Source: Candidatus Dojkabacteria bacterium
GTDB lineage: Bacteria > Patescibacteriota > Dojkabacteria > B142 > OLB20
DNA: 64,000 nucleotides
Assembly (NCBI GenBank): GCA_046753765.1
Contig: JBHHUN010000006.1
Span: forward strand, 130-64,129
Reading direction: 5' to 3'
Shown: positions 2,219-44,621 of the stretch, one piece after another
How the letters are laid out: every line of letters begins with the position of its first letter
Numbering within the stretch: the stretch's first letter is position 1
The notes under the pieces: generated by a model
The model's input: the letters and a program-made list of their open reading frames with translations, nothing else
Told to the model about the DNA's origin: nothing
Databases searched by the model: none
Translations under genes and position numbers: made by a program

Positions 2219-2968
2219 CTACTGTGAGCTCCAGATGCGTCCGCTTCCTGTGACGTTTTCGGTGACTTCGGGATTTCCTTCGTATAGTATCTCCCCGCTG
2301 CCATTTACATTTGCACTTAAGCTGGTTCGGCAATTTACTTTGATAGTCCCCGATCCATTTATGGTAGCATTACAATCCCTTGCCCGAAGATTGTAACTTG
2401 AGACAGCTCCGGGGCCGTTCACGGTGACTCCAAACTGTTCAACGTTTCCTGCGACCTCTGTTGAACCCGATCCGTTAATGACGATGTCCAGATTACTTGC
2501 GAAAAGATCAAGGGTGACACTTCCAGAACCGGAGACGTTAACATCCAGGCTTTGAGATTGTAGTCTTGGTGCGGTTATGAGACCCGAACCAGATACCGTT
2601 AACTCATTTATGGTTGTAACGGTCAGGTTGTAGACAATAGGCTTTGTGGGGATCAGATTGAAAAAGATTGTGTTGCGTCTCTTGATTGTGAGGGTACCAT
2701 CTACGACTTCGGTAACAATATTTTCAAGGATGTTGTCTTCTCCTTGAATTTCCAGTTTTGGTTCCGATCCCTGGGTTAAAATGATCTCCCCGGTTGTGGC
2801 CAGGTTTATCGCCTGAAATTCACCGATTTCTCTCTTCTGATTGATTACGTTTCCGGATCCGACAAGTGTGGACCTGAAGATGGATATAGATGCAATACCA
2901 CATACCGTACACAGGGCCATAAGGGCAAGTACTACGGTCAGGATTATGTACTTTGTTTTTTTGCTCAA
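2219..2968 (-). CDS. Membrane-anchored DUF2807-like (putative adhesin head, GIN domain) protein
   Basis: N-terminal TM helix followed by repetitive V/N-rich segments with recurrent GSG (VSGSGSVTL, INGSGTIKV, VNGSGEILY) typical of DUF2807 beta-solenoid proteins. Confidence 0.5.
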   Translation of the reverse strand: MSKKTKYIILTVVLALMALCTVCGIASISIFRSTLVGSGNVINQKREIGEFQAINLATTGEIILTQGSEPKLEIQGEDNILENIVTEVVDGTLTIKRRNTIFFNLIPTKPIVYNLTVTTINELTVSGSGLITAPRLQSQSLDVNVSGSGSVTLDLFASNLDIVINGSGSTEVAGNVEQFGVTVNGPGAVSSYNLRARDCNATINGSGTIKVNCRTSLSANVNGSGEILYEGNPEVTENVTGSGRIWSSQ

Positions 2969-3183
2969 GGGGGCGACATTAACTAAAAGTATGTTAATGC
3001 AAATATACTAGAAAGTCCATACGGACTTGGCGATTGTATATTTCGATAAAACAGATCTCGCGGCTGACACAAATGGGGTCGACTTTCTTGTTTCCCTCTG
3101 GTTTAGCCAATTCCGATTTTCTTTGTAAAACAAATTGTTACCTTACTTGAATGTGTATACAATAAGGGAACAATAGCTAACCC

Positions 3184-17565: not shown

Positions 17566-18945
17566 CTACCTCCCCACAAACTCCCTCCCCATAAACGACC
17601 TCAAAACCTCAGGTACCTTTATCGTTCCATCTGACTGCTGATAGTTGTCCATTATTGAGATTAGCATTCTACCCATAGCGACACCCGTGTCGTTTACTGT
17701 GTGCACATATCGTTTCTTCCCATCCTGCGTCTTATACTTAATATTCATCCGTCGGGCCTGAAAATCGGTGGCATTTGTATCTGTCATGACCTCTATAAAC
17801 TCACCTTGCCCGGCAAGCCATACCTCGGGGTCAACCTGTTTGGCACTGGCGTGGTAACCGGCGTCTCCTGTACATTTAAGTGCGAGTTGGTAGGGGAGCT
17901 TAAGCTCCTGTAACAACCATTCGTTAATCCCAAGCAGCTCATCAAATACCTCGCCGGATTTTTCCGGTGTGGAGACAACATTCATCTCAATCTTGTCAAA
18001 CTGATGCAACCGTTTTATTCCCTTTGTATCTTTTCCCCACGATCCTGCCTCTGACCTGAAGCATGATGTATAAGCAAACAGTTTTATGGGAAGCTCGCTC
18101 TCATCGAGCACTTTGTCCATATAGTAAGAGAAATTCGCTGGCTCACTGGATCCAAGTAAATACAACTGCTGTCCCTCTTCAACAAACTCAGTATCAATTC
18201 TGTATATCTGATCTCGACCCTCTGGAATGTGAGTGGACCCGTAAAGTGCAGGCTCTCTTACTAAAAGAGGAGGGATTATCTGCCTAAATCCTGATGCAAG
18301 CAGCTTATCAAAAAACATCCTCTGAATTGCAAACTGCATGAGAGCAAGATCCCCCAACAGGTAAGTGAATCGCGTCCCTGAGACCTTTGCTGCCTGCTTG
18401 TTATCAATCACTCCTAGGGCCTCTCCAAGATCAAGGTGATGACGGGGCTTATAATCCTGCTTGTCTGCGTGCAGTGGAAAGCGTGGCATGTCGTCTTCGC
18501 TGTTGCCTCTCGCCTTGAGTCCTTCCAGCCTCTCAAGATACCCATTGTCAGGTGTCCAGGCTCTTAGAATTAAATTGTCTTCCTCCCCAGCACCCTCAGG
18601 CATATCACCAAGCGGCATGTTTGGAACCCAATCCAAAATCTCCTGCCACTCCTTCACTATGTCGTCAAGCTCAGCAGCAAGCTTCTGCGAACGCTCCTTA
18701 ACCTCCCGCCCCATAGCCCTGACCTTCTCAATATCTCCACCTTCTTTGCCAATCTTAGCCAGCTCATTTTTCTCGCGGTTAAGCTCATCCTGCGCCGAAA
18801 GAAGCTCACGCCTTTTAGCGTCAAGTTCCAGCCAGCGATCAATATCTGCCTTTTCAGGATCGGATCTTCCGCTCGCTATTACGCGCTTAACCTCATCTGC
18901 ATTGTTTCTTATAAAATCTGAATCCAACATGACTGATAAGTTCAA
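17566..18945 (-). CDS. serS: Seryl-tRNA synthetase
   Basis: N-terminal coiled-coil arm (MLDSDFIRNNADEVKRVI...RELLSAQDELNREKNELAKIGK) and class II catalytic core; T-box leader upstream. Confidence 0.85.
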   Translation of the reverse strand: MNLSVMLDSDFIRNNADEVKRVIASGRSDPEKADIDRWLELDAKRRELLSAQDELNREKNELAKIGKEGGDIEKVRAMGREVKERSQKLAAELDDIVKEWQEILDWVPNMPLGDMPEGAGEEDNLILRAWTPDNGYLERLEGLKARGNSEDDMPRFPLHADKQDYKPRHHLDLGEALGVIDNKQAAKVSGTRFTYLLGDLALMQFAIQRMFFDKLLASGFRQIIPPLLVREPALYGSTHIPEGRDQIYRIDTEFVEEGQQLYLLGSSEPANFSYYMDKVLDESELPIKLFAYTSCFRSEAGSWGKDTKGIKRLHQFDKIEMNVVSTPEKSGEVFDELLGINEWLLQELKLPYQLALKCTGDAGYHASAKQVDPEVWLAGQGEFIEVMTDTNATDFQARRMNIKYKTQDGKKRYVHTVNDTGVAMGRMLISIMDNYQQSDGTIKVPEVLRSFMGREFVGR

Positions 18946-18971
18946 AGATTAAAACTCTAGACTTCTTAAAC

Positions 18972-19250
18972 AAAAAAAGTCCCTATATCTATCTCCGTTC
19001 AGAAACAGATACAAGGACTCTTTCGAGTGGTGCCACCTTTGTTCCGAGCTGATTAAGTGTAACCGGCTCGGCGCTTTACAATACATTATTCAGTTGTCTG
19101 GAATAAACTCTCCACAGGCTTTCTCATTAGTTTGGTTCGCGTACATTTTGGACTTTTAGTAAGCCTTTTCTGTAGAGAAGAGCTTAGGTGAATATTACAT
19201 TAATGACCCCAAAATAGTCAATGGCAAATGCGGTTAACTTGGTGAGATTA
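18972..19250 (-). promoter_or_regulatory. T-box riboswitch leader of serS (candidate UCC specifier, T-box AAAGGUGGCACCACUCG, intrinsic terminator)
   Basis: Minus-strand RNA contains the T-box-like AAAGGUGGCACCACUCG (UGGC would pair with the GCCA end of tRNA-Ser). It is followed immediately by a GAGUCC...GGGACU hairpin and a U7 run (plus 18972-19020). CCGGUUAC (an F-box-like element) lies in an upstream hairpin. UCC followed by A, about 100 nt upstream, is a candidate specifier. Confidence 0.55.
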
Positions 19251-34697: not shown

Positions 34698-35183
34698 ATG
34701 AGAAACACTATCCTGATCGTAGTAACAACATTCTTTTTCACTGCTTTGTTTCTGCATGTTTTCAATAATGTGAGCCCATGGAATACTGATGCAGTCCAAC
34801 TGGCAATCGAACGTTACGGTCTTGAAACTCAAGATAACTTCACTGAGTTTGTAGATCAGGCAATGGAATTCGGGCTCATCTGGAGCCTGATTGATATCAA
34901 GAACCTGCTGCTACTGTTAGCACTACTTGGTGGTGCAGTCGTTTCGGGATTTGCGGTGCTACACCTCATTATTGATAAGCTATTTGTTAAGAAATTCTAT
35001 GAGAAGCCAAATGTTTCTGTTGCGTTCAGAAGGGGTGTCCTGGTCTACCTTGTGATCGTTAGTCTGATTTTGCTGAGACTGATCGCCGGATTGTTTTGGT
35101 ATAATGCACTCGCGGTGTTGATCTTGGCAGTGTCGATTGAATATGCCTTCGTAAACTATTTTAAAGATAGAGGGAATGAATAA
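34698..35183 (+). CDS. Hypothetical four-TM membrane protein (no Cys; not DsbB/VKOR)
   Basis: 161 aa with four hydrophobic helices. Confidence 0.45.
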   Translation: MRNTILIVVTTFFFTALFLHVFNNVSPWNTDAVQLAIERYGLETQDNFTEFVDQAMEFGLIWSLIDIKNLLLLLALLGGAVVSGFAVLHLIIDKLFVKKFYEKPNVSVAFRRGVLVYLVIVSLILLRLIAGLFWYNALAVLILAVSIEYAFVNYFKDRGNE

Positions 35184-36924
35184 AAAGATACTCGTTGCAA
35201 TCGCTTGGCCCTATGTTAACGGCGATATCCACCTTGGACATCTTGCTGGCTACCTTTTGCCGGCTGACATTTTTGCCAGGTATCAGAGATTGAAAGGAAA
35301 TGACGTGCTAATGGTTTCTGGCAGTGACACCCACGGAACACCTATAACTGTACAGGCGGATAAAGAAGGGGTTTCACCCGAGGAAATCGTTGAAAAGTAC
35401 CACAAAAGTGATGTTGCACTGTTTAAACAGTACAAGCTCAGTTACAACCTCTACACTACGACGAGAACAGAAAATCACAAACGCGTCGTACAGGAGCTAT
35501 TCCTACAGCTGCTCGACAACGACTATATTGTTGTTGATACTCAGGAGCAGTACTACTCGAGTAAGGACGAGCAGTTTTTGCCGGACCGCTACGTAAAGGG
35601 GACGTGCCCTTATTGCGGGGCAGAACACCAGCGAAGTGACCAATGTGAAAGCTGTGGCCGTTGGATAGGCGATGGTGAGTTGGTTGCCCCTTACAGTGTG
35701 CTCACTCGGGCACCGGTTGAGCTGAAAGAGACAGAGCACTACTTTCTCGATTTCCCAAAGGCACAGAAAGAGCTTGAAAAGTATGTTGAGTCGAAGAAAG
35801 ATGTATGGCGAAACTGGATCTGGAAAGAAGCAAGTGGTTGGTTAAAAGAGGGGCTTGAGAAAAGAGCGATTACTCGTGATATGGATTGGGCAATTGAGCT
35901 CCCCATCGATGAAATCAAGAAGCGTCCGAAATCGAAACAGCTCAAATTCTTTGAGGGAAAACGGATTTACGTCTGGTTTGAAGCTGTTATTGGCTATCTT
36001 TCGGCTCCTCAAGAATGGGTTGATCTCAATGAGGGTGGAGAAGATAAGATTTTTCTTAAGACCAAAGGTCAGTCAAATGACTGGAAGGACTGGTGGATGA
36101 ATGGAGACTCCGAGCAGTTCTACTTCATGGGCCAGGATAACCTGGTTTTTCATACACTTATGTGGCAGGCAGAGCTGATGGGAAGTGGAGTCGACTATAC
36201 ACTGCCGCACAACGTTCTTGTTAACAAATTTATGAATTATGAGGGTAAGAAGTTTTCAAAGAGCAGAAACTGGACTATTGATTCAAAAGCCATGGCTGAT
36301 AAATATGGTGTTGACGCTGTGCGTTTTTACATCGCATCAAACTTCCCCGAAAACAAAGAGGGCGACTTCACCTGGGAGGGGTTTGTTGACTCGATCAACA
36401 ACGAGCTTGTCGCAAATCTGGGTAATCTGGTTAACAGAATTTTGAAGTTTATTGAGAGTAGCTTTGAGGGCAAGCTTTCCCCAGACGATTATGAGCTTGA
36501 TGAGAAAGTAAAAAACGAGGTTGATAGTGCATTTACTGAGATCGGTGAACATATTCAGAAAGGTGAGTTTGTTGCCGGGCTGGACAGAATAATGGAACTT
36601 ACGCGATTCGGTAATAAGTACTTCGACAGCTCAAAGGTGTGGAAGGTTGCAAAAGATCATCCCGATGAAGCTGAGAGGATTCTCATGAACATGATTAATC
36701 TGATTAGTGCGATTCCTTTCATTTTAGCCCCGTATCTGCCCGAGGGAACAGGGAAGCTTTGCATGTACCTCCGTTTTAAACCGTTAAACCCGAAGGTCGG
36801 CACAGATCTTTGGCAACCTACTTTCCGCAACAGTTTTGAGCTTAATCATGAGGTTAAACCAGTTTTTGCAAAGCTGGAACGGGACACGGTGTTAGCCGAA
36901 AAAGAAGGAACTTCTGATGAGTAA
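35176..36924 (+). CDS. metG: Methionyl-tRNA synthetase
   Basis: Class I HLGH (WPYVNGDIHLGHLAGY), zinc knuckle CPYCG...CESCG, KFSKSRNW (KMSKS), anticodon-binding helical domain. Confidence 0.9.
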   Translation: MNKKILVAIAWPYVNGDIHLGHLAGYLLPADIFARYQRLKGNDVLMVSGSDTHGTPITVQADKEGVSPEEIVEKYHKSDVALFKQYKLSYNLYTTTRTENHKRVVQELFLQLLDNDYIVVDTQEQYYSSKDEQFLPDRYVKGTCPYCGAEHQRSDQCESCGRWIGDGELVAPYSVLTRAPVELKETEHYFLDFPKAQKELEKYVESKKDVWRNWIWKEASGWLKEGLEKRAITRDMDWAIELPIDEIKKRPKSKQLKFFEGKRIYVWFEAVIGYLSAPQEWVDLNEGGEDKIFLKTKGQSNDWKDWWMNGDSEQFYFMGQDNLVFHTLMWQAELMGSGVDYTLPHNVLVNKFMNYEGKKFSKSRNWTIDSKAMADKYGVDAVRFYIASNFPENKEGDFTWEGFVDSINNELVANLGNLVNRILKFIESSFEGKLSPDDYELDEKVKNEVDSAFTEIGEHIQKGEFVAGLDRIMELTRFGNKYFDSSKVWKVAKDHPDEAERILMNMINLISAIPFILAPYLPEGTGKLCMYLRFKPLNPKVGTDLWQPTFRNSFELNHEVKPVFAKLERDTVLAEKEGTSDE

Positions 36925-39169: not shown

Positions 39170-40183
39170 ATGAGTATCTATATCGAAACTGGGCAACACA
39201 GAACTAATACGAGACAGATGAAAAGCTCTCTTGTTGGTAGTTATTTGGTGGACAGTGAGGTTCCCATTACTGCAGACGGGTTTACAGAGTTTGAAGGAAG
39301 TGTTCTTACAGGGTTTACGAACATAAGAGAAGGAAAGACCGCTAGTGGTGAGGCTCCTCCATGGGAGCGTGACAGTGTGGATGAGCTGGATGAAATGTGG
39401 TCAATACTCTGCCTCGGCAACTTTCAGGACCCTTTTGAGCCCTCTCCTTTTGAGAAAGCGGCAGATCATCTGATGCATAACATTTGGGCGAAAGTGGCCG
39501 GGTCAATTCATGTCTTGAGTTCGCCCGATGGGGAGGTTACAGAGGATCTTCTACATGTACAAGCGACCTATCTTACGAATATGATCGCTCTAAAAAACAT
39601 ATCCGACTTAGCCAGGAACCACTATGAAACTGATAGGTCTTCATCAAGGCAAAGTTCGTTCAGTTTATCTGTAGTAGCACGAACGCTTAACCTGATGGGC
39701 AGGAGGAATAGTGCCTCGGTAGAAACACTTTTTAATGGTAGTCCTGCAGTAGAGTTGGGCGCGGAGGTTGAAATAGACTCATTCGCAGCTATCCATTTGA
39801 TAGAACTTGGATTGGCAGGAGTCACTTCAAGTGCGGAGCAACATGAAGTCAAGATTGATGTGCAGCAAACCGGTCTTGGGACGAGTATTACGGTTGATGA
39901 TACTGGGGGCGGTATAGACCCCTCTGTCGCAGGGAACGTTTTTCAGATGGGTGTCTCCACTACAGGAGGGGGAAAGGGAAAGGCGTATTTGGCAGACTGG
40001 GTAAAGTCCCGTAAGGGGAAACTGTCAGCAACGTCATTTGCGAAAGGAAACTGCCTGGGGACTTATACTGATGCACTTGACCCAGAGAATACGCGCTCAA
40101 TTCAAAGGACTGACGAACCTTACAATACTCGCTTTGCCTTATACATTCCCGATCAACAGCTGGTCATCGGGATTGCTGCCTAG
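39170..40183 (+). CDS. GHKL/HATPase_c-like ATPase domain protein (paralogue B)
   Basis: N-box-like AAIHLIELGLAGV, G1 VDDTGGGID, G2 TTGGGKGKAYL; extended -10 TGGTATAAT at 39117-39125 upstream. Confidence 0.5.
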   Translation: MSIYIETGQHRTNTRQMKSSLVGSYLVDSEVPITADGFTEFEGSVLTGFTNIREGKTASGEAPPWERDSVDELDEMWSILCLGNFQDPFEPSPFEKAADHLMHNIWAKVAGSIHVLSSPDGEVTEDLLHVQATYLTNMIALKNISDLARNHYETDRSSSRQSSFSLSVVARTLNLMGRRNSASVETLFNGSPAVELGAEVEIDSFAAIHLIELGLAGVTSSAEQHEVKIDVQQTGLGTSITVDDTGGGIDPSVAGNVFQMGVSTTGGGKGKAYLADWVKSRKGKLSATSFAKGNCLGTYTDALDPENTRSIQRTDEPYNTRFALYIPDQQLVIGIAA

Positions 40184-43053
40184 CCAGCTTGGTACGGCCA
40201 ACGCGCATACATTATCGTCTCTGTATCACCTTCGATCTTTGGAAACTCTTTCCACACCCTCTCTGTTATGAAAGGGATGAATGGATGCAGCAGGATCATG
40301 TAGTTTCTGTAAACATGGTAGAGCGTCCATTGGGCAGCCATTCTGCTTGTCTTTGCTTCATCTGATGCATTAATCTCATTCCCATCGCGGTCTTTGGTAT
40401 ACAGCCGTGTTTTAATCTTCTCGAGATAGATATCAGCGAATGTGTGCCAGAACGATTCGTAAAGCTCTTGAGCAGCAACTCCCAGTAAAAATTTATCCAT
40501 ACGTTTTTTTGTATCCTTACAGAGTTTGCTAATATGGTCCAGCACCTCTTTATCTTCGACTTCAAGTTTGAGGTCCTCTTTAGTGAGACTCGTGACATCA
40601 TCTGCGCCCTCAAGGTTAGTAAGCGCGAACTTACCTGCATTCCAGATCTTGTTTAGGAATCGCTTAAAGCCTTCCAGCTTCTCGTACGAGATAGGATAGC
40701 CAGCGCCCGCTTTGTTACCGACTATGTACATCAACCGCAATGCGTCTGCGCCGTATTTATTAATTATGTCATCGGGCATCACAACGTTCCCCCTTGACTT
40801 ACTCATCTTCTGTCCATCAGGTGCTTTTACCAAACCATGTAAATAGACGTCTTCAAAAGGGATTTCGCCTTGAGTATAGATACCGAGCATGATCATTCGT
40901 GAGACCCAGAGTTCAAGAATATCGTAAGCTGTCTCCATTACGTGAGAAGGGTAAAAGGTGTCCATCAGATCATGTGCCGTAAGTGTTGCATACGGCCACT
41001 GACCGGAGGAGAACCATGTGTCGAAAACATCATTGTCCTGGATCCAGCCTGGTTCGGCAATGTTAAATTTAAGCTCTTCCAGATTATTTGCATCTTCTTT
41101 ACGGGATTCTTCAGGTGTTACATGCCATAATTTTCTCTTCAATATCCTGATAATGCCGACATGCGCAACAACAAGTATGTTTTTCCCTTCGTACTCTTCA
41201 ATTAGTTTCTCAATAAAGTCCTCGACTCTTGTTTCAACCTCTTCAATAGATTCACCGGATGGTAAATATGGTTGGTAGTTTGGGTGATTTTTTGCGGCGA
41301 GATCAGGATGCTTGTTTGCAAACTCATCCCAGGTAAGACCCTCGGCCTCGCCAAAATCCCGCTCAATAAGGAGGTCTTCAACCTCAACCTCAGCCCCAAG
41401 TTTCTCTGCGATTATCTCTGCCGTCTGGATACTTCTTTTGAGGGGTGAGGTGAGAACGATGTCATATTTATTTTCGCCAGATTCAGAATACTGCTCTGCT
41501 TGAGTTTTTCCGCTTTCGTTCAAAGGCAGGTCGGTCCTTCCTGATAGTTTGCCCTCTTTATTGTCGTCAGTTTCGCCATGCCTTATCACTGTCAGGGTGA
41601 TACCTGGTGGGTCAGTCTGTACCCTTGCCAGACCTTTCTGTGCGGCATCATAGATGCCAGCAATAGGCTTCCCGTCTATTGTTTCGACTACCTGTCCGTT
41701 TTCGTCTATGTGTTCACTAAGCTCTCCTTTATACCAGACCGGTATACGATACCCCCACCATAGCGAGCGGGAAACAGGCCAGTCATGCAGGTTTTCCATC
41801 CAGTTAAGATACTTTTTTTTCATGTAGTCGGGGTGGATGTGGACCCTTCCACTTTTGACGACATCAATGGCCGGTTTTTTTAGTTTCTCAACGTCAATGA
41901 ACCACTGTGATGACATTATCTGTTCTATCACAGCTTTAGAGCGTTCGCCGATCATTACTCTTTGGGTTATTCTCTCTGTTTTGATAACCAGATCCCCAAG
42001 GTCTTTTACTACCTCTTTCCGACAGTCTTCGGTAGTCATGCCTATATACTTCCCCGGAATCGGACCGGTCATCTTTGCGTCTTTATCTATCACGTTCACG
42101 TATCCGATTTTTCCTTTTACGGTCTTTTGTTCGGAGTTCCACTCGTTCATGATGACATAGTCTTCGTACGCGTGGGATGGTGTGAGCTTGAGGGCTCCTG
42201 TACCAAATTCCATTTCGATTCTTCCCGAGCTTATGATTGGGATTTCGCGTTCAACTAAAGGAAGGATGACAGTTTGACCGATTAAGTGCTTGTAACGTTT
42301 GTCTTTGGGATCAACAACAACAGCAGTGTCTCCCAGCATTGTTTCGGGGCGGGTTGTGGCTACAGTTATGTGTTTAGTATCTCCGTCCGCCTCCTTTAAG
42401 GGGTAGTTAATGTAGATAAGTTGAGATTCCCGCTCAACTCTTTCTGTGTCAATGTCGGCGAGTGTAGTTTGAGCCACAGGGTCCCAGTTAACGATTCGCA
42501 CACCCTTATAGACCATGTTGTCGTCAAACATCTTTAGAAAAGTGCCCAGCACGGTGTCGACTATCTTTGGATCAAGGGTAAACAGGTCGCGGTCATAGTC
42601 ACTTGAGAGACCGATACGCTTCTCATCATCAACGATGAGTGGCCTCAGTTTTTCAAAGTGAGCGTACGCTGCCTTGTAAAACTTCTCGCGGCCCATGTCT
42701 GCCTTTGATTTCTTTTTGTTTTCTAAGAAGATCTTTTCAACCAGCACTTCCCCTTGGATTCCAGCGTGATCACGTCCAGGTTGGCCAAGGACTTTCTTGC
42801 CGAGTATTCTTTGGTAGCGAAGCATTGCATCTTGGTAAGCAAATCCTGAGACATTACCTATGTGAGGGCGGGAGTATGCGTTTGGTGGCGGATTGATGAT
42901 GCAAAAAGGTGAACGGGCGTCTTTCTCCATCTCTTCTTTCGAGAGTAGTCCTTTATCGCGATCGTACTCAGGCTTGTAGAAGGGATTGTCAAGCCAGAAC
43001 TTCAGTATCTCTTCTTCGGTTTTGGTTGCGTTGTACGGGCCTTTTGGTAGCAT
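40180..43053 (-). CDS. valS: Valyl-tRNA synthetase with an inserted histidine-phosphatase (PGM-like) domain
   Basis: INPPPNAYSRPHIGN...GQPGRDHAGIQ (ValRS HIGH region), CP1 editing TTRPETMLGDTAVVV, WPVSRSLWWGYRIPVWY, DVFDTWFSS, KMSKSRGNVV. Between WY (about residue 441) and DVFDTWF (about 675) sit roughly 190 extra residues containing LTVIRHGETDDN...VAHVGIIRIL (the RHG...H histidine-phosphatase signature). The ORF is continuous over 957 aa. Confidence 0.85.
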   Translation of the reverse strand: MLPKGPYNATKTEEEILKFWLDNPFYKPEYDRDKGLLSKEEMEKDARSPFCIINPPPNAYSRPHIGNVSGFAYQDAMLRYQRILGKKVLGQPGRDHAGIQGEVLVEKIFLENKKKSKADMGREKFYKAAYAHFEKLRPLIVDDEKRIGLSSDYDRDLFTLDPKIVDTVLGTFLKMFDDNMVYKGVRIVNWDPVAQTTLADIDTERVERESQLIYINYPLKEADGDTKHITVATTRPETMLGDTAVVVDPKDKRYKHLIGQTVILPLVEREIPIISSGRIEMEFGTGALKLTPSHAYEDYVIMNEWNSEQKTVKGKIGYVNVIDKDAKMTGPIPGKYIGMTTEDCRKEVVKDLGDLVIKTERITQRVMIGERSKAVIEQIMSSQWFIDVEKLKKPAIDVVKSGRVHIHPDYMKKKYLNWMENLHDWPVSRSLWWGYRIPVWYKGELSEHIDENGQVVETIDGKPIAGIYDAAQKGLARVQTDPPGITLTVIRHGETDDNKEGKLSGRTDLPLNESGKTQAEQYSESGENKYDIVLTSPLKRSIQTAEIIAEKLGAEVEVEDLLIERDFGEAEGLTWDEFANKHPDLAAKNHPNYQPYLPSGESIEEVETRVEDFIEKLIEEYEGKNILVVAHVGIIRILKRKLWHVTPEESRKEDANNLEELKFNIAEPGWIQDNDVFDTWFSSGQWPYATLTAHDLMDTFYPSHVMETAYDILELWVSRMIMLGIYTQGEIPFEDVYLHGLVKAPDGQKMSKSRGNVVMPDDIINKYGADALRLMYIVGNKAGAGYPISYEKLEGFKRFLNKIWNAGKFALTNLEGADDVTSLTKEDLKLEVEDKEVLDHISKLCKDTKKRMDKFLLGVAAQELYESFWHTFADIYLEKIKTRLYTKDRDGNEINASDEAKTSRMAAQWTLYHVYRNYMILLHPFIPFITERVWKEFPKIEGDTETIMYARWPYQAG

Positions 43054-43120
43054 GCTTTTCTCAGTTCACCGAGTGGGGATTCCCCTAACCCCTGTCGTAA
43101 GTATATATAAAATTACCAAA

Positions 43121-43156
43121 TTTACCGAGCTAGTTATTAATAACTAGCTCGGTAAA
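43121..43156. repeat. 36-bp perfect palindrome TTTACCGAGCTAGTTATTAATAACTAGCTCGGTAAA in the valS leader
   Basis: Exact reverse-complement symmetry read directly from the sequence; sits between the T-box terminator and the valS start. Confidence 0.6.
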
Positions 43157-43157
43157 C

Positions 43158-43202
43158 GAAAAAACCCCTGACCGATTACCATTCATGATAACAGGTCAGA
43201 GG
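43158..43202 (-). terminator. Intrinsic terminator of the valS T-box leader
   Basis: Minus-strand ACCUCUGACC...GGUCAGGGG stem followed by UUUUUU (plus 43158-43163 aaaaaa). Confidence 0.55.
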
Positions 43203-43385
43203 TCTTCTATTAGACGGTACCACTCTGAGTTTCACTTGATCAGCTGTAACGGGCTTACCCGGGAGGTTCTTGCCGTCACCCTAATTAACTTAGGATCTAC
43301 GGTTTTTCCTCCGGCCTGCCGGGCTGCGAGCTTGTCTCCTGCCTGGCTGGTTCGGTGACGAGTCGAACTCTGACCTTTGGTTATT
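43158..43385 (-). promoter_or_regulatory. T-box riboswitch leader of valS (candidate GUC specifier, F-box CCGUUA, T-box AGAGUGGUACCGUC, terminator)
   Basis: Minus-strand RNA contains CCCGUUAC (F-box) at plus 43246-43253. The T-box-like AGAGUGGUACCGUC sits at plus 43213-43226; its UGGU would pair with the ACCA end of tRNA-Val. A terminator follows immediately. GUC followed by A, in the loop of a short GUUCG/CGAAC hairpin about 135 nt upstream, is a candidate specifier. Confidence 0.6.
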
Positions 43386-43450
43386 TAGTTCGCTCGATTT
43401 TAGCAGAAAGAGAGGAGATAGGCAATCATGGTATTAGTTTGTAGATTGTT

Positions 43451-44621
43451 TTAGAATTCGCACATCGGCGATCCTTCTGTTGTGGTATGTATCTGGAGTA
43501 TCTTTCTAGCAACTGCGACAGGAGCATCGGGTGATACCCGCATTGCGAGGACAGCCAGAGTGTAATCGTCTGTACGCATCACTTTATTCATCAATCGTGA
43601 TTCCGGTCTGAATAAATTCTCTGCCTCCTCACAAAGTTGACTGGCTAGTATACGATTCGCTTTTGCCCTGTCGGTTCCGTGTCTAGTTCTGACATGTCTG
43701 CAAATATAAAAAGTAAAGTCGTAGTTTATTATGTTTTTTGCTTTCTTTATTATTTTGATTTGATTTTTACCGCCCGAATCTCCTGAGTGCAAAATTAAAA
43801 GCACCTATTGGGAAATTTTCTGAAAGTGCGAATAGATCAGTTCGCCCTGCATCAATGTCTGCTCTCCTCAATCTAGAAAGAGACATACCCAGTGGTACGT
43901 CAAGTTCTGGCCCTATTGTCAGAAAATTCGAGGTTAGTAACCCTCCGGTGAATTGATTGACGAAATAAACATGTTGGTCCTCACCGCCACTTTGGACAGT
44001 TGCAACATTTACCGACCAGATTGTATCCAGCAGTTCAGCAGGGTGTTGAAATATGGAGTTACTGGGGAACTGAACAAAGAAGTGATCGGATTCATTCTGA
44101 GCCCTTGTAAGGTCTAGCAGGGTACGCAGTGCAGTTCTATCCTCGGTGTTTGTATAGCGAAGATCATCTTTCGCGTAATGGTAGGCTGTGTCGGGTCCTC
44201 CTGTTAGGGGTGGAAGAAACCCGAGGTCATTAGGCTGATCCGCGGGTGGGAAAGTTGATTGGTATGCCTGAGTTTCACGTATCGTGCGTTTCGACCCGAG
44301 TGGTATACCCAGTCTCTTCATTTGGGTTACTTCTACCGTATGCAGTGAAGCTGCAAAAAGGAACGGCCTGTTTTCTGGATCAGGAATGCCGGGTTCAAAC
44401 AGAAGAACTGTTGCGCATGTAAACGGAACATTCGGGCTTAACACAACAACTTGAACGAATTGCTGGATTGTACCACTGGTGCGAAGTCGTGTTGCTACTC
44501 CGATTTGAGACCCTTTCAACGCTTGGGTAACAAACTCTCCTGCCTCGTGCCTGAGCCTTGCTAATGTTTTAGCCTCTGAAGCGTCCTCACCACTGAGTTG
44601 TTCTGATATGGCTTCGTTCAT
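43451..44621 (-). pseudogene. Frameshifted gene (two overlapping ORFs, 284 + 117 aa), possibly a trypsin-like serine peptidase (GDSGG motif)
   Basis: ORFs 43767..44621 and 43451..43804 overlap by 38 nt in different frames; the downstream piece begins ...ILHSGDSGGKN, immediately after the frame break. Confidence 0.45.

What the first reader, a model, noticed from the sequence alone, without database searches (positions are those of the whole stretch)
43158..43385. T-box riboswitch leader upstream of valS with a candidate hairpin-loop specifier
Read on the minus strand, the valS 5' region contains an F-box (CCCGUUAC) and a T-box-like sequence (AGAGUGGUACCGUC). The UGGU of the T-box matches the ACCA 3' end expected for tRNA-Val. 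An intrinsic terminator, ACCUCUGACC/GGUCAGGGG plus U6, follows immediately, so the T-box can alternatively pair with its 5' half as an antiterminator. The only GUN codon followed by a purine in the right place (GUCA) lies in the terminal loop of a short GUUCG/CGAAC hairpin. That would be an unusually minimal Stem I, reminiscent of the ultrashort Stem I described for actinobacterial ileS T-boxes, rather than a canonical Stem I internal loop.
Basis: partly seen in the sequence, partly recalled or inferred. Interest (0 to 1): 0.6.

Follow-up and report, generated by a model that had tools for sequence, protein, structure and literature searches.

The report
Minimal T-box riboswitch controlling valS
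In front of the valyl-tRNA synthetase gene of an uncultured Dojkabacteria (CPR) bacterium sits a tRNA-sensing RNA switch (T-box) that lacks the usual long tRNA-gripping arm yet appears to act by terminating transcription, a combination the T-box papers I could search do not describe.

Summary
They form a real, conserved T-box leader. Fourteen Dojkabacteria valS leaders share the same layout:
- a promoter;
- a 4-6 bp hairpin with an invariant GUC (Val) on the 3' side of its 7-11 nt loop;
- Stem II with S-turn strands;
- a Stem IIA hairpin plus F-box;
- the T-box bulge UGGNACC inside an A1/A2 antiterminator;
- in 11 of 14, a strong terminator that reuses the A1 3' strand.

On a hand-registered alignment, 21 of 25 base pairs show compensatory changes and 93% of cells are paired (0 of 500 shuffles reach this). 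The Rfam T-box model misses the window. It does give significant sub-threshold hits for three sister leaders (34-40 bits). Its alignment shows the base of Stem I kept and about 76 interior positions replaced by a 9-nt loop holding GUC.

This is therefore a T-box with a truncated Stem I, like the actinobacterial ileS T-boxes. It differs in being Val-specific, terminator-coupled and found in a CPR lineage. Searches of the held papers found no T-box report for that lineage.

The cognate tRNA-Val could not be checked. A second, more divergent T-box precedes serS in the same window.

The parts
43397..43425 (-). Sigma-70-type promoter: -35 TTGCCT, 17-nt spacer, TG-extended -10 TAAAAT. The predicted transcription start is near 43390.
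   Evidence: only promoter-like site in 43000-43520. Relatives have TATAAT-like boxes at the equivalent place. The start site is inferred, not measured.
43350..43368 (-). Truncated Stem I: GUUCG(A)-CUCGUCA-(C)CGAAC. The specifier GUC is at 43359-43357 and the following purine A at 43356.
   Evidence: the hairpin is in the MFE when folding starts at the predicted start site. GUC is invariant and 5 of 6 stem pairs show compensatory changes across 14 leaders. L166 and L167 carry the same loop with different stems.
43318..43347 (-). Window-specific imperfect hairpin inserted between Stem I and Stem II. Relatives have a 4-19 nt linker here.
   Evidence: Folds; linker lengths. Its function is unknown.
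43262..43312 (-). Stem II: lower helix GGAGG/CCUCC flanking the S-turn strands AAAAAC and GCAAGAA, plus a variable apical hairpin.
   Evidence: Folds. All 5 lower-helix pairs covary and are 100% paired. RF00230 aligns the equivalent GAA/AGUA of L166 to the model's Stem II. The window's S-turn strands deviate from the family consensus AAGAAC/AGUAGAA.
43246..43261 (-). Stem IIA hairpin CGGG-UAAG-CCCG, with the F-box-like CCCGUUAC at 43253-43246.
   Evidence: 98% paired. Aligned to the model's CGg...cCGUUA in L166. Nearly identical to the Chloroflexia valS T-box L021, CCGGGUUCGCCCGUUACAGC. The IIB pseudoknot pairing was not established.
43196..43228 (-). Antiterminator: A1 UCAGAG/CUCUGA, 7-nt T-box bulge UGGUACC (43222-43216), A2 GUCU/AGAC. 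The T-box 14-mer is at 43226-43213.
   Evidence: Fold. A1 and A2 covary (5 of 6 and 4 of 4 pairs). UGG.ACC is invariant in 14 of 14.
43159..43204 (-). Intrinsic terminator: a long hairpin whose 5' strand contains the A1 3' strand, followed by U6 at 43164-43159.
   Evidence: -24.6 to -27.8 kcal/mol, z = -6.6. Equivalent terminators occur in 11 of 14 leaders. The simple pattern scanner missed it.
43117..43157 (-). A 17-bp perfect palindrome immediately after the terminator. Whether it belongs to the switch is uncertain.
   Evidence: -24.8 kcal/mol, z = -8.5. Unique in the window. Not seen in relatives.
40180..43053 (-). The regulated gene: valS (valine--tRNA ligase, 957 aa), carrying an inserted histidine-phosphatase domain.
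   Evidence: NCBIfam NF004349 at 729.6 bits, above its cutoff of 704. Pfam His_Phos_1 at aa 488-666.

Best explanation
This is a valine-specific T-box riboswitch that controls valS by tRNA-dependent transcription antitermination. It is built on a truncated Stem I.

**What the sequence and comparison show**
- Transcription starts near 43390.
- A 5-bp hairpin (43368-43350) presents GUC in its apical loop.
- A Stem II with S-turn strands and a Stem IIA/F-box element follow.
- The 3' domain can fold in two mutually exclusive ways. One is an A1/bulge/A2 antiterminator with the bulge UGGUACC. The other is a much more stable terminator plus U6 that uses the same CUCUGA strand.

**What is inferred from the established T-box mechanism**
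- Uncharged tRNA-Val(GAC) pairs its anticodon with GUC.
- That pairing is clamped by the Stem II S-turn, as in the solved ileS T-box-tRNA complexes.
- The free 3'-NCCA end pairs with UGGU in the bulge. This stabilises the antiterminator, so RNA polymerase reads through into valS.
- Charged Val-tRNA cannot do this, and the terminator forms.

The long upper Stem I, which in canonical T-boxes grips the tRNA elbow, is absent. tRNA recognition must therefore rest on the anticodon and the 3' end alone.
For: **Sequence and folds in the window**
- All motifs are present.
- The antiterminator and terminator folds are as described.
- The decoding module folded from the predicted start site contains the Stem I hairpin, Stem II and IIA in its MFE.

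**Comparison across 14 leaders**
- All share the layout.
- The hand-registered alignment A4 gives 93.1% paired cells, with 21 of 25 pairs changed on both sides and 0 of 500 shuffles reaching this. Slid controls give 30-52%.
- GUC and UGG.ACC are invariant.
- A terminator overlaps A1 in 11 of 14.

**Homology to the T-box family**
- RF00230 hits L164 (40.2 bits), L166 (39.6) and L016 (34) with E of 2e-5 to 7e-4.
- The L166 alignment maps Stem II, IIA/F-box, Stem III and the T-box to the model. It replaces 76 Stem I positions by 9 nt containing GUC.
- A model built from the 13 relatives finds the window leader as the best hit in 64 kb (21.9 bits, E = 0.0013).

**Gene identity and genome context**
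- The downstream gene is valS.
- T-box logic operates in this genome. A second T-box homolog precedes serS (RF00230 28.1 bits, E = 1e-4). It has a conserved Ser codon UCY. Its bulge UGGC is complementary to G73 of the window's tRNA-Ser gene.

**Literature**
- The solved actinobacterial ileS T-boxes have a K-turn Stem I with the specifier in the apical loop, a Stem II S-turn and a IIA/B pseudoknot (PMC7583486; PMC10651847).
Against: - **No family-model hit for the window.** RF00230 finds nothing for the window's valS leader even at E <= 10.
- **Deviations from the family consensus.** The window's S-turn strands differ (AAAAAC/GCAAGAA against AAGAAC/AGUAGAA). A 37-nt linker carrying a 30-nt hairpin separates Stem I from Stem II.
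- **A competing hairpin.** If transcription started a few bases further upstream, a more stable competitor would sequester the 5' strand of Stem I (GAGCGAAC/GUUCGaCUC, -7.6 against -4.2 kcal/mol).
- **No K-turn signature in the window.** It is clear in L001, L003, L165, L014 and L167.
- **Base after GUC.** It is C, not a purine, in 3 of 14 leaders.
- **Bulge N varies.** It is U in 9, A in 3 and C in 2, and no tRNA-Val gene is available to test covariation.
- **Alignment bias.** A4 was registered by hand to the structure, which inflates the paired percentage, though not the compensatory changes.
- **No experimental data.**
Confidence: 0.8

Rival explanations
1. It is a T-box, but the specifier is the other GUCA (43374-43371). 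That site lies in the large loop of the thermodynamically favoured 5' hairpin GAGCGAAC...GUUCGaCUC (43395-43360).
For: Its loop begins UAAAUAAC, like the L008 and L016 loops.
Against: The site aligns to GCAUUUGA, the GA-motif strand, in the closest leaders L164, L166 and L167. It is therefore not a conserved GUC. L166 and L167 share the CUCGUCA loop with compensatory stem changes.
Confidence: 0.06
2. It is a decaying or non-functional T-box remnant in this genome. The terminator acts constitutively, or is overcome by something other than tRNA.
For: The window leader is the only one examined in detail that gets no RF00230 hit at E <= 10. Its S-turn strands deviate. A hairpin is inserted next to Stem I. 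No K-turn signature is visible. Four related valS loci have no leader at all, so the element is dispensable.
Against: GUC, the 7-nt bulge, the A1/A2 helices, Stem II pairing, IIA/F-box and the overlapping terminator are all intact in the window. A constitutive -25 kcal/mol terminator in front of an essential single-copy valS would be harmful unless it can be relieved.
Confidence: 0.08
3. The switch acts mainly on translation or mRNA stability rather than on transcription termination, as in the actinobacterial short-Stem-I T-boxes.
For: All previously described ultrashort-Stem-I T-boxes are translational (PMC7583486). L001, L002 and L089 lack a clear terminator that overlaps A1.
Against: In the window the alternative helix is a classic hairpin plus U6. 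It lies about 105 nt upstream of the start codon and does not touch the ribosome-binding region. Eleven of 14 leaders have the same design.
Confidence: 0.05
4. It is not a tRNA sensor at all. The motifs are a chance resemblance in a leader regulated by a protein or by a simple attenuator.
For: No Rfam hit for the window. The antiterminator fold alone is not unusual for its composition (z = -0.8).
Against: The T-box bulge and GUC are invariant. Helices covary across 14 loci. Sister leaders have significant RF00230 matches with a collinear alignment.
Confidence: 0.01

Closest known systems
Actinobacterial ileS T-box riboswitches with short or 'ultrashort' Stem I (Mycobacterium tuberculosis and Nocardia farcinica; Sherwood et al. 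2015; structures 6UFG and 6UFM as cited in PMC7583486)
   Same: - Stem I is reduced to its base, with a K-turn signature visible in several Dojkabacteria relatives.
- The specifier sits on the 3' side of the apical loop, usually followed by a purine.
- There is no elbow-binding double T-loop platform.
- Stem II with an S-turn, Stem IIA and the F-box are retained, as is the same A1/7-nt bulge/A2 discriminator.
- The codon lies about 18-20 nt from the base of Stem I in L166, against 16-18 in N. farcinica.
   Different: - The specifier is GUC (Val) in front of valS, not AUC (Ile) in front of ileS.
- The expression platform is an intrinsic terminator in 11 of 14 leaders, not a Shine-Dalgarno sequestrator.
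- The host is Candidatus Dojkabacteria (Patescibacteria/CPR), not Actinobacteria.
- The IIA/F-box sequence resembles Chloroflexia valS T-boxes. The truncation is therefore probably independent (an inference).
- Three of 14 leaders have C after the codon.
Canonical transcriptional valS T-box leaders (Rfam RF00230), e.g. Chryseomicrobium L034 and Chloroflexia L019 and L021
   Same: - The regulated gene is the same.
- The specifier is a Val codon (GUA in L034 and L019, GUC in L021).
- The Stem II GAA/AGUA motif, the IIA/F-box (CCGGGU..GCCCGUUACAGC), the T-box bulge and the terminator/antiterminator competition are shared.
   Different: - Canonical leaders have a roughly 100-nt Stem I with an internal Specifier Loop, AG bulge and distal loop. 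They score 82-136 bits.
- The Dojkabacteria leaders lack all of that. They score 34-40 bits or nothing.
glyQS T-boxes (a minimal transcriptional T-box lacking Stem II)
   Same: Both are naturally reduced T-boxes that still act on transcription.
   Different: glyQS keeps the long Stem I with the elbow platform and drops Stem II and IIA/B. The Dojkabacteria valS element does the opposite (PMC7583486).

Membership tests
T-box leader (Rfam RF00230) | Covariance-model score at or above the gathering threshold (93 bits) | tested here: not met
   The window has no hit at gathering or at E <= 10. Sister leaders score 34-40 bits with E of 2e-5 to 7e-4. The positive control L034 scores 135.7 bits.
T-box leader (Rfam RF00230) | Conserved T-box sequence AGGGUGGNACCGCG, with a 7-nt bulge UGGNACC between helices A1 and A2 | tested here: met
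   AGAGUGGUACCGUC at 43226-43213. The fold gives A1 (6 bp), the 7-nt bulge and A2 (4 bp). UGG.ACC is invariant in 14 of 14, and A1 and A2 covary.
T-box leader (Rfam RF00230) | A mutually exclusive terminator (or sequestrator) that shares a strand with the antiterminator | tested here: met
   CUCUGA (43201-43196) is both the A1 3' strand and the terminator 5' strand. The terminator folds at -24.6 kcal/mol and is followed by U6. The same holds in 11 of 14 leaders.
T-box leader (Rfam RF00230) | A specifier codon that matches the amino acid of the regulated gene | tested here: met
   GUC is invariant in the Stem I loop of 14 valS leaders. The gene is valS. The serS leader of the same window carries a conserved UCY.
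T-box leader (Rfam RF00230) | A long Stem I with an internal Specifier Loop, AG bulge and distal loop forming the tRNA-elbow platform | tested here: not met
   The RF00230 alignment of L166 replaces 76 model positions of Stem I by 9 nt. The window Stem I is a 19-nt hairpin.
T-box leader (Rfam RF00230) | Stem II with an S-turn, and a Stem IIA/B pseudoknot containing the F-box | tested here: inconclusive
   The Stem II helix and the IIA hairpin covary and are 98-100% paired. The F-box-like CCCGUUAC is present. The IIB pseudoknot pairing could not be defined, and the window's S-turn strands deviate from the consensus.
T-box leader (Rfam RF00230) | A cognate uncharged tRNA whose anticodon and discriminator (N73) match the specifier and the bulge N | not testable with these tools
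There is only indirect support: the serS T-box bulge UGGC matches G73 of the window's tRNA-Ser.
Short-Stem-I ('class II', actinobacterial ileS-type) T-box | Specifier in the apical loop of a short Stem I, followed by a conserved purine | tested here: met
   GUC lies at the 3' side of a 7-11 nt apical loop in 14 of 14 leaders. The next base is A in 8, G in 3 and C in 3.
Short-Stem-I ('class II', actinobacterial ileS-type) T-box | A K-turn at the base of Stem I | tested here: inconclusive
   The signature GC-NNU-GA...GA-GC is clear in L001, L003, L165, L014 and L167 and partial in others. It is not evident in the window.
Short-Stem-I ('class II', actinobacterial ileS-type) T-box | Translational control by sequestering the Shine-Dalgarno sequence | tested here: not met
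   The window has an intrinsic terminator about 105 nt upstream of the start codon. Eleven of 14 leaders are terminator-type.
Short-Stem-I ('class II', actinobacterial ileS-type) T-box | ileS gene, Ile specifier, Actinobacteria | tested here: not met
   The gene is valS, the specifier is GUC, and the source is a Candidatus Dojkabacteria MAG.

The most novel reading that the evidence does not exclude
Dojkabacteria carry a lineage of T-boxes that terminate transcription without any tRNA-elbow contact. They decode tRNA-Val with a roughly 19-nt Stem I plus Stem II only. If so, they independently reproduce the actinobacterial truncation, but under the kinetic constraint of co-transcriptional decision-making. 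The same genomes carry a serS T-box homolog whose only conserved Ser codon lies on the 5' side of the decoding domain, an arrangement that fits no described T-box.
Probability: 0.5. Interest if true: 0.72.

Novelty: new variant of a known kind. Interest (0 to 1): 0.6.

Why it matters
The current view (PMC7583486) is that transcriptional T-boxes need the long Stem I platform to capture tRNA quickly. On that view, Stem I can be shortened only where regulation is translational and not time-limited. A conserved family that pairs a truncated Stem I with an intrinsic terminator would be a natural counter-example. It would also be a compact system for testing that kinetic argument.

The family would extend T-box regulation to the Candidate Phyla Radiation. 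[quoted passage not shown] T-boxes may therefore be under-counted in uncultured lineages.

Practically, the 14 leaders give a seed for a new covariance model.

Tried and rejected
- **Rfam scans of the window.** A scan at gathering and two at E <= 10 gave no T-box hit for the valS leader. Cutting the RNA at Stem II to provoke a truncated match did not help.
- **MAFFT on full leaders (A2).** It aligned only the Stem II 3' strand through the T-box. Stem I and the loops were scrambled. I therefore built equal-length, N-padded constructs in a hand-chosen register (A3 shifted two rows and was replaced by A4).
- **The 5' hairpin 43395-43360 as Stem I.** Considered and rejected on homology and on the predicted start site.
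- **Covariance model R1, built from the 13 relatives.** It finds the window leader but misplaces Stem I onto a nearer hairpin. It scores even its own training loci at only 18-27 bits, because the constructs omit the variable inserts. It is not useful for discovery.
- **A IIB pseudoknot pairing.** Sought by eye. Only L002 and L008 show obvious complementarity between the loop and the 3' tail. No consistent register was found, so none is claimed.
- **RNAalifold on five serS leaders.** It recovered only the antiterminator.
- **The canonical specifier slot of the serS leader.** It reads AGC in four of the five leaders, but that position covaries as part of a helix (AAC in L161). I rejected it as the codon.
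- **tRNA searches of 29 sources (the window and 28 loci).** No tRNA-Val was found.
- **Literature.** Sherwood 2015 and Vitreschak 2008 are not held in the library. Searches for T-box with Patescibacteria, CPR or Dojkabacteria found nothing relevant.

Full report
**What is in the sequence**

All positions in this section are read on the minus strand.
  - CCCGUUAC at 43253-43246;
  - AGAGUGGUACCGUC at 43226-43213;
  - a hairpin pairing ACCUCUGACC with GGUCAGGGGU, followed by U6 (43204-43159);
  - GUUCG-ACUCGUCAC-CGAAC at 43368-43350.
- The ORF is valine--tRNA ligase. NCBIfam NF004349 scores 729.6 bits against a cutoff of 704.
- Folding 43228-43191 alone gives exactly the T-box discriminator topology: A1 of 6 bp, the 7-nt bulge UGGUACC, and A2 of 4 bp (-8.3 kcal/mol).
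- The overlapping terminator folds at -24.6 to -27.8 kcal/mol, with z about -6.6.
- The A1 3' strand CUCUGA is the 5' part of the terminator stem, so the two folds exclude each other.
- A TG-extended sigma-70-type promoter lies just upstream: -35 at 43425-43420 and -10 at 43402-43397.

**The family model fails on the window**

- RF00230 gave no hit at the gathering score.
- It gave none at E <= 10 on 601 nt.
- It gave none when the RNA was cut at Stem II.

**Origin and relatives**

- The ValRS and SerRS of the window are 100% identical to proteins that NCBI labels Candidatus Dojkabacteria.
- The nearest ValRS loci are WS6/Dojkabacteria MAGs at 55-70% identity.
- Thirteen of those loci carry the same leader:
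  - L001, L002, L003, L004, L008 and L016;
  - L086 and L089;
  - L164, L165, L166 and L167;
  - L014, where the leader sits 1.4 kb upstream, ahead of an aroE-like and a NUDIX gene that precede valS.
- Four related loci have none: L081, L087, L090 and L105.

**Anatomy shared by the 14 leaders**

- **Promoter.** Each leader has a -10 box.
- **Stem I.** A 4-6 bp hairpin follows. Its 7-11 nt loop ends in GUC plus one base, which is A in 8, G in 3 and C in 3.
- **Linker.** It is 4-19 nt in the relatives and 37 nt in the window.
- **Stem II.** Its lower helix flanks AAGAAC and (A)GUAGAA.
- **Stem IIA and F-box.** The sequence CGGG-UAAG-CCCG is followed by UUAC/AAUAGC.
- **Stem III.** It is optional.
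- **Discriminator.** It reads (A/G)G(A/G)G-UGGNACC with A2 and A1'.

Covariation was counted on an equal-length, hand-registered alignment (A4).
- 93.1% of cells are paired, and 21 of 25 pairs change on both sides.
- The covariation score is 0.651 against 0.253 in shuffles. None of 500 shuffles reaches it, and slid registers give 30-52% paired.
- Every helix contributes: Stem I 5 of 6 pairs, Stem II 5 of 5, IIA 2 of 4, A1 5 of 6 and A2 4 of 4.
- The register was chosen by me, which favours pairing. The compensatory changes are harder to bias.

In 11 of 14 leaders, a hairpin of -14 to -32 kcal/mol that contains the A1 3' strand is followed directly by a U-run. L001, L002 and L089 are unclear.

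**Which GUCA is the specifier?**

The window has two candidates. The MFE of the whole intergenic RNA prefers a 5' hairpin (43395-43360).
- **Closest leaders.** They have the same loop with different, complementary stems: window GUUCGA-CUCGUCA-CCGAAC, L167 GUCUGA-CUCGUCA-CCAGAC and L166 AUUCGG-CUCGUCA-CCGAAU.
- **Conservation.** The upstream GGUCAGA aligns to GGCAUUUGA in L164, L166 and L167. RF00230 assigns that segment to the GA (K-turn) strand at the base of Stem I. That GUC is therefore not conserved.
- **Start site.** The predicted start near 43390 leaves only 3-4 nt of the competing 5' strand. The start site is inferred, not measured.

**Homology to T-boxes**

- At an E-value threshold, RF00230 matches L164 (40.2 bits, E = 1.9e-5), L166 (39.6) and L016 (34).
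- Chloroflexia valS leaders, which have a canonical long Stem I, score 82-90 bits.
- The L166 alignment is collinear with the model. In order, it matches:
  - the base of Stem I (aagC-gaUGAa-agGG ... CCcu-gGA-Gc) to GC-AUUUGA-AUUCG ... CGAAU-AA-GC;
  - the next 76 model positions to 9 nt (GCUCGUCAC);
  - Stem II (GAA/AGUA), IIA plus F-box, AAGUG, Stem III and the T-box.
- This is the anatomy described for the actinobacterial ileS T-boxes: a K-turn Stem I with the specifier in its apical loop, a Stem II S-turn and a IIA/B pseudoknot.
- A covariance model built from the 13 relatives alone picks the window leader as its best hit in the 64-kb window (21.9 bits, E = 0.0013). The model misplaces Stem I and is weak overall.

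**Mechanism**

- Shown: the two exclusive 3' folds, the conserved codon-bearing loop, the conserved bulge and the identity of the gene.
- Inferred from the established T-box mechanism:
  - uncharged tRNA-Val(GAC) pairs with GUC;
  - the 3'-ACCA end pairs with UGGU, which stabilises the antiterminator and lets transcription continue into valS;
  - charged tRNA leaves the terminator to form.
- tRNA-Val could not be examined, because no tRNA-Val gene lies in the window or in any locus.
- The bulge N varies: U in 9, A in 3 and C in 2. This makes a clear prediction for N73 in those genomes.

**Weaknesses specific to the window**

- No RF00230 hit.
- S-turn strands AAAAAC/GCAAGAA instead of AAGAAC/AGUAGAA.
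- A 37-nt linker next to Stem I that carries a 30-nt hairpin.
- No visible K-turn signature.

These leave some room for a decaying element. Even so, every pairing and every invariant motif is intact.

**Comparison and novelty**

- The element is a T-box by homology and by architecture.
- It fails the curated Rfam threshold and lacks the canonical upper Stem I.
- It works like the short-Stem-I ileS T-boxes of Actinobacteria. It is not one of them, because the gene, the codon and the phylum all differ and the expression platform is a terminator.
- The review literature states that transcriptional T-boxes generally require the long Stem I. It states that short Stem I goes with translational control.
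- Full-text searches found no T-box report for Patescibacteria, CPR or Dojkabacteria.
- The IIA/F-box is nearly identical to that of a Chloroflexia valS T-box. This suggests descent from a canonical valS T-box and an independent truncation; that is an inference.
- I rate it a new variant of a known kind.

**Other observations**

- **A second T-box homolog.** It precedes serS at 19187-19010 on the minus strand (RF00230 28.1 bits, E = 1.1e-4).
  - It has a terminator.
  - Its bulge UGGC is complementary to G73 of the window's tRNA-Ser.
  - Its decoding domain fits no described layout.
- **Inserted enzyme domains in ValRS.** Dojkabacteria ValRS proteins carry a remarkable variety of them.

Noticed in passing
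window 18969-19221 (minus strand), upstream of serS 17566-18930: A second T-box homolog. It has a promoter (19221-19192), a bulge UGGCACC (19035-19029) inside an A1/A2 antiterminator, and a terminator plus U-run (19021-18976). RF00230 scores only 28.1 bits (E = 1.1e-4). Relatives L161, L163, L168 and L169 share it. Helices P1 and P2 covary (89.6% paired, 9 of 25 compensatory). The only conserved Ser codon is UCY (19152-19150; UCC in four, UCU in one). It lies on the 5' side, between P2 and a mini-hairpin with the invariant loop UACGCGAAC. The canonical specifier slot is part of a helix. UGGC matches G73 of the window's tRNA-Ser. How it decodes tRNA is open, and it may be more unusual than the valS element.
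   Followed up: partly
window 40180-43053 (minus strand), ValRS aa ~486-666; also L008, L016 and proteins P0122-P0240: The ValRS carries a complete histidine-phosphatase (His_Phos_1) domain with its RHG motif intact. It is inserted between the IPVWY...DPPG segment and GWIQDNDVFDTWF. Other Dojkabacteria ValRS proteins carry different inserted enzyme domains at this site or in the CP1 region: HAD hydrolase, Ser_hydrolase or alpha/beta hydrolase, GNAT acetyltransferase and Ham1p-like. Some carry none, and lengths range from 717 to 1477 aa. One literature search found no description.
   Followed up: partly
window 43117-43157: A perfect 17-bp palindrome (UUUACCGAGCUAGUUAUUAAUAACUAGCUCGGUAAA; -24.8 kcal/mol, z = -8.5) lies directly after the valS terminator. 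It is unique in the window and has no clean U-run on either strand. It is not seen in related leaders. Its role is unknown.
   Followed up: partly
L014:1490-1706, then ORFs 1717-2562 and 2562-3023, valS at 3001: In WS6 bacterium OLB20 the same GUC T-box sits ahead of an aroE-like (shikimate dehydrogenase family, below cutoff) gene and a NUDIX gene that precede valS. The switch there appears to control a three-gene operon. The valS reading frame in this assembly breaks after 41 codons.
   Followed up: partly
L019:2610-2861 and L021:2569-2876 (Chloroflexia valS leaders): These are canonical long-Stem-I valS T-boxes that fall just below the Rfam gathering score (82.1 and 89.9 bits against 93). 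The curated threshold therefore also misses ordinary T-boxes outside Firmicutes.
   Followed up: no
window 35176-36924 (plus strand): The third aminoacyl-tRNA synthetase gene of the window, metG, has no leader. An upstream ORF runs right up to it. T-box control in this genome is therefore gene-specific.
   Followed up: yes
window 43375-43370 with 43243-43238 (minus strand): When the leader is folded from the predicted start site, a long-range helix GGUCAG/CUGAUC encloses Stem I, Stem II and IIA. It is not conserved in relatives and is probably fortuitous.
   Followed up: no
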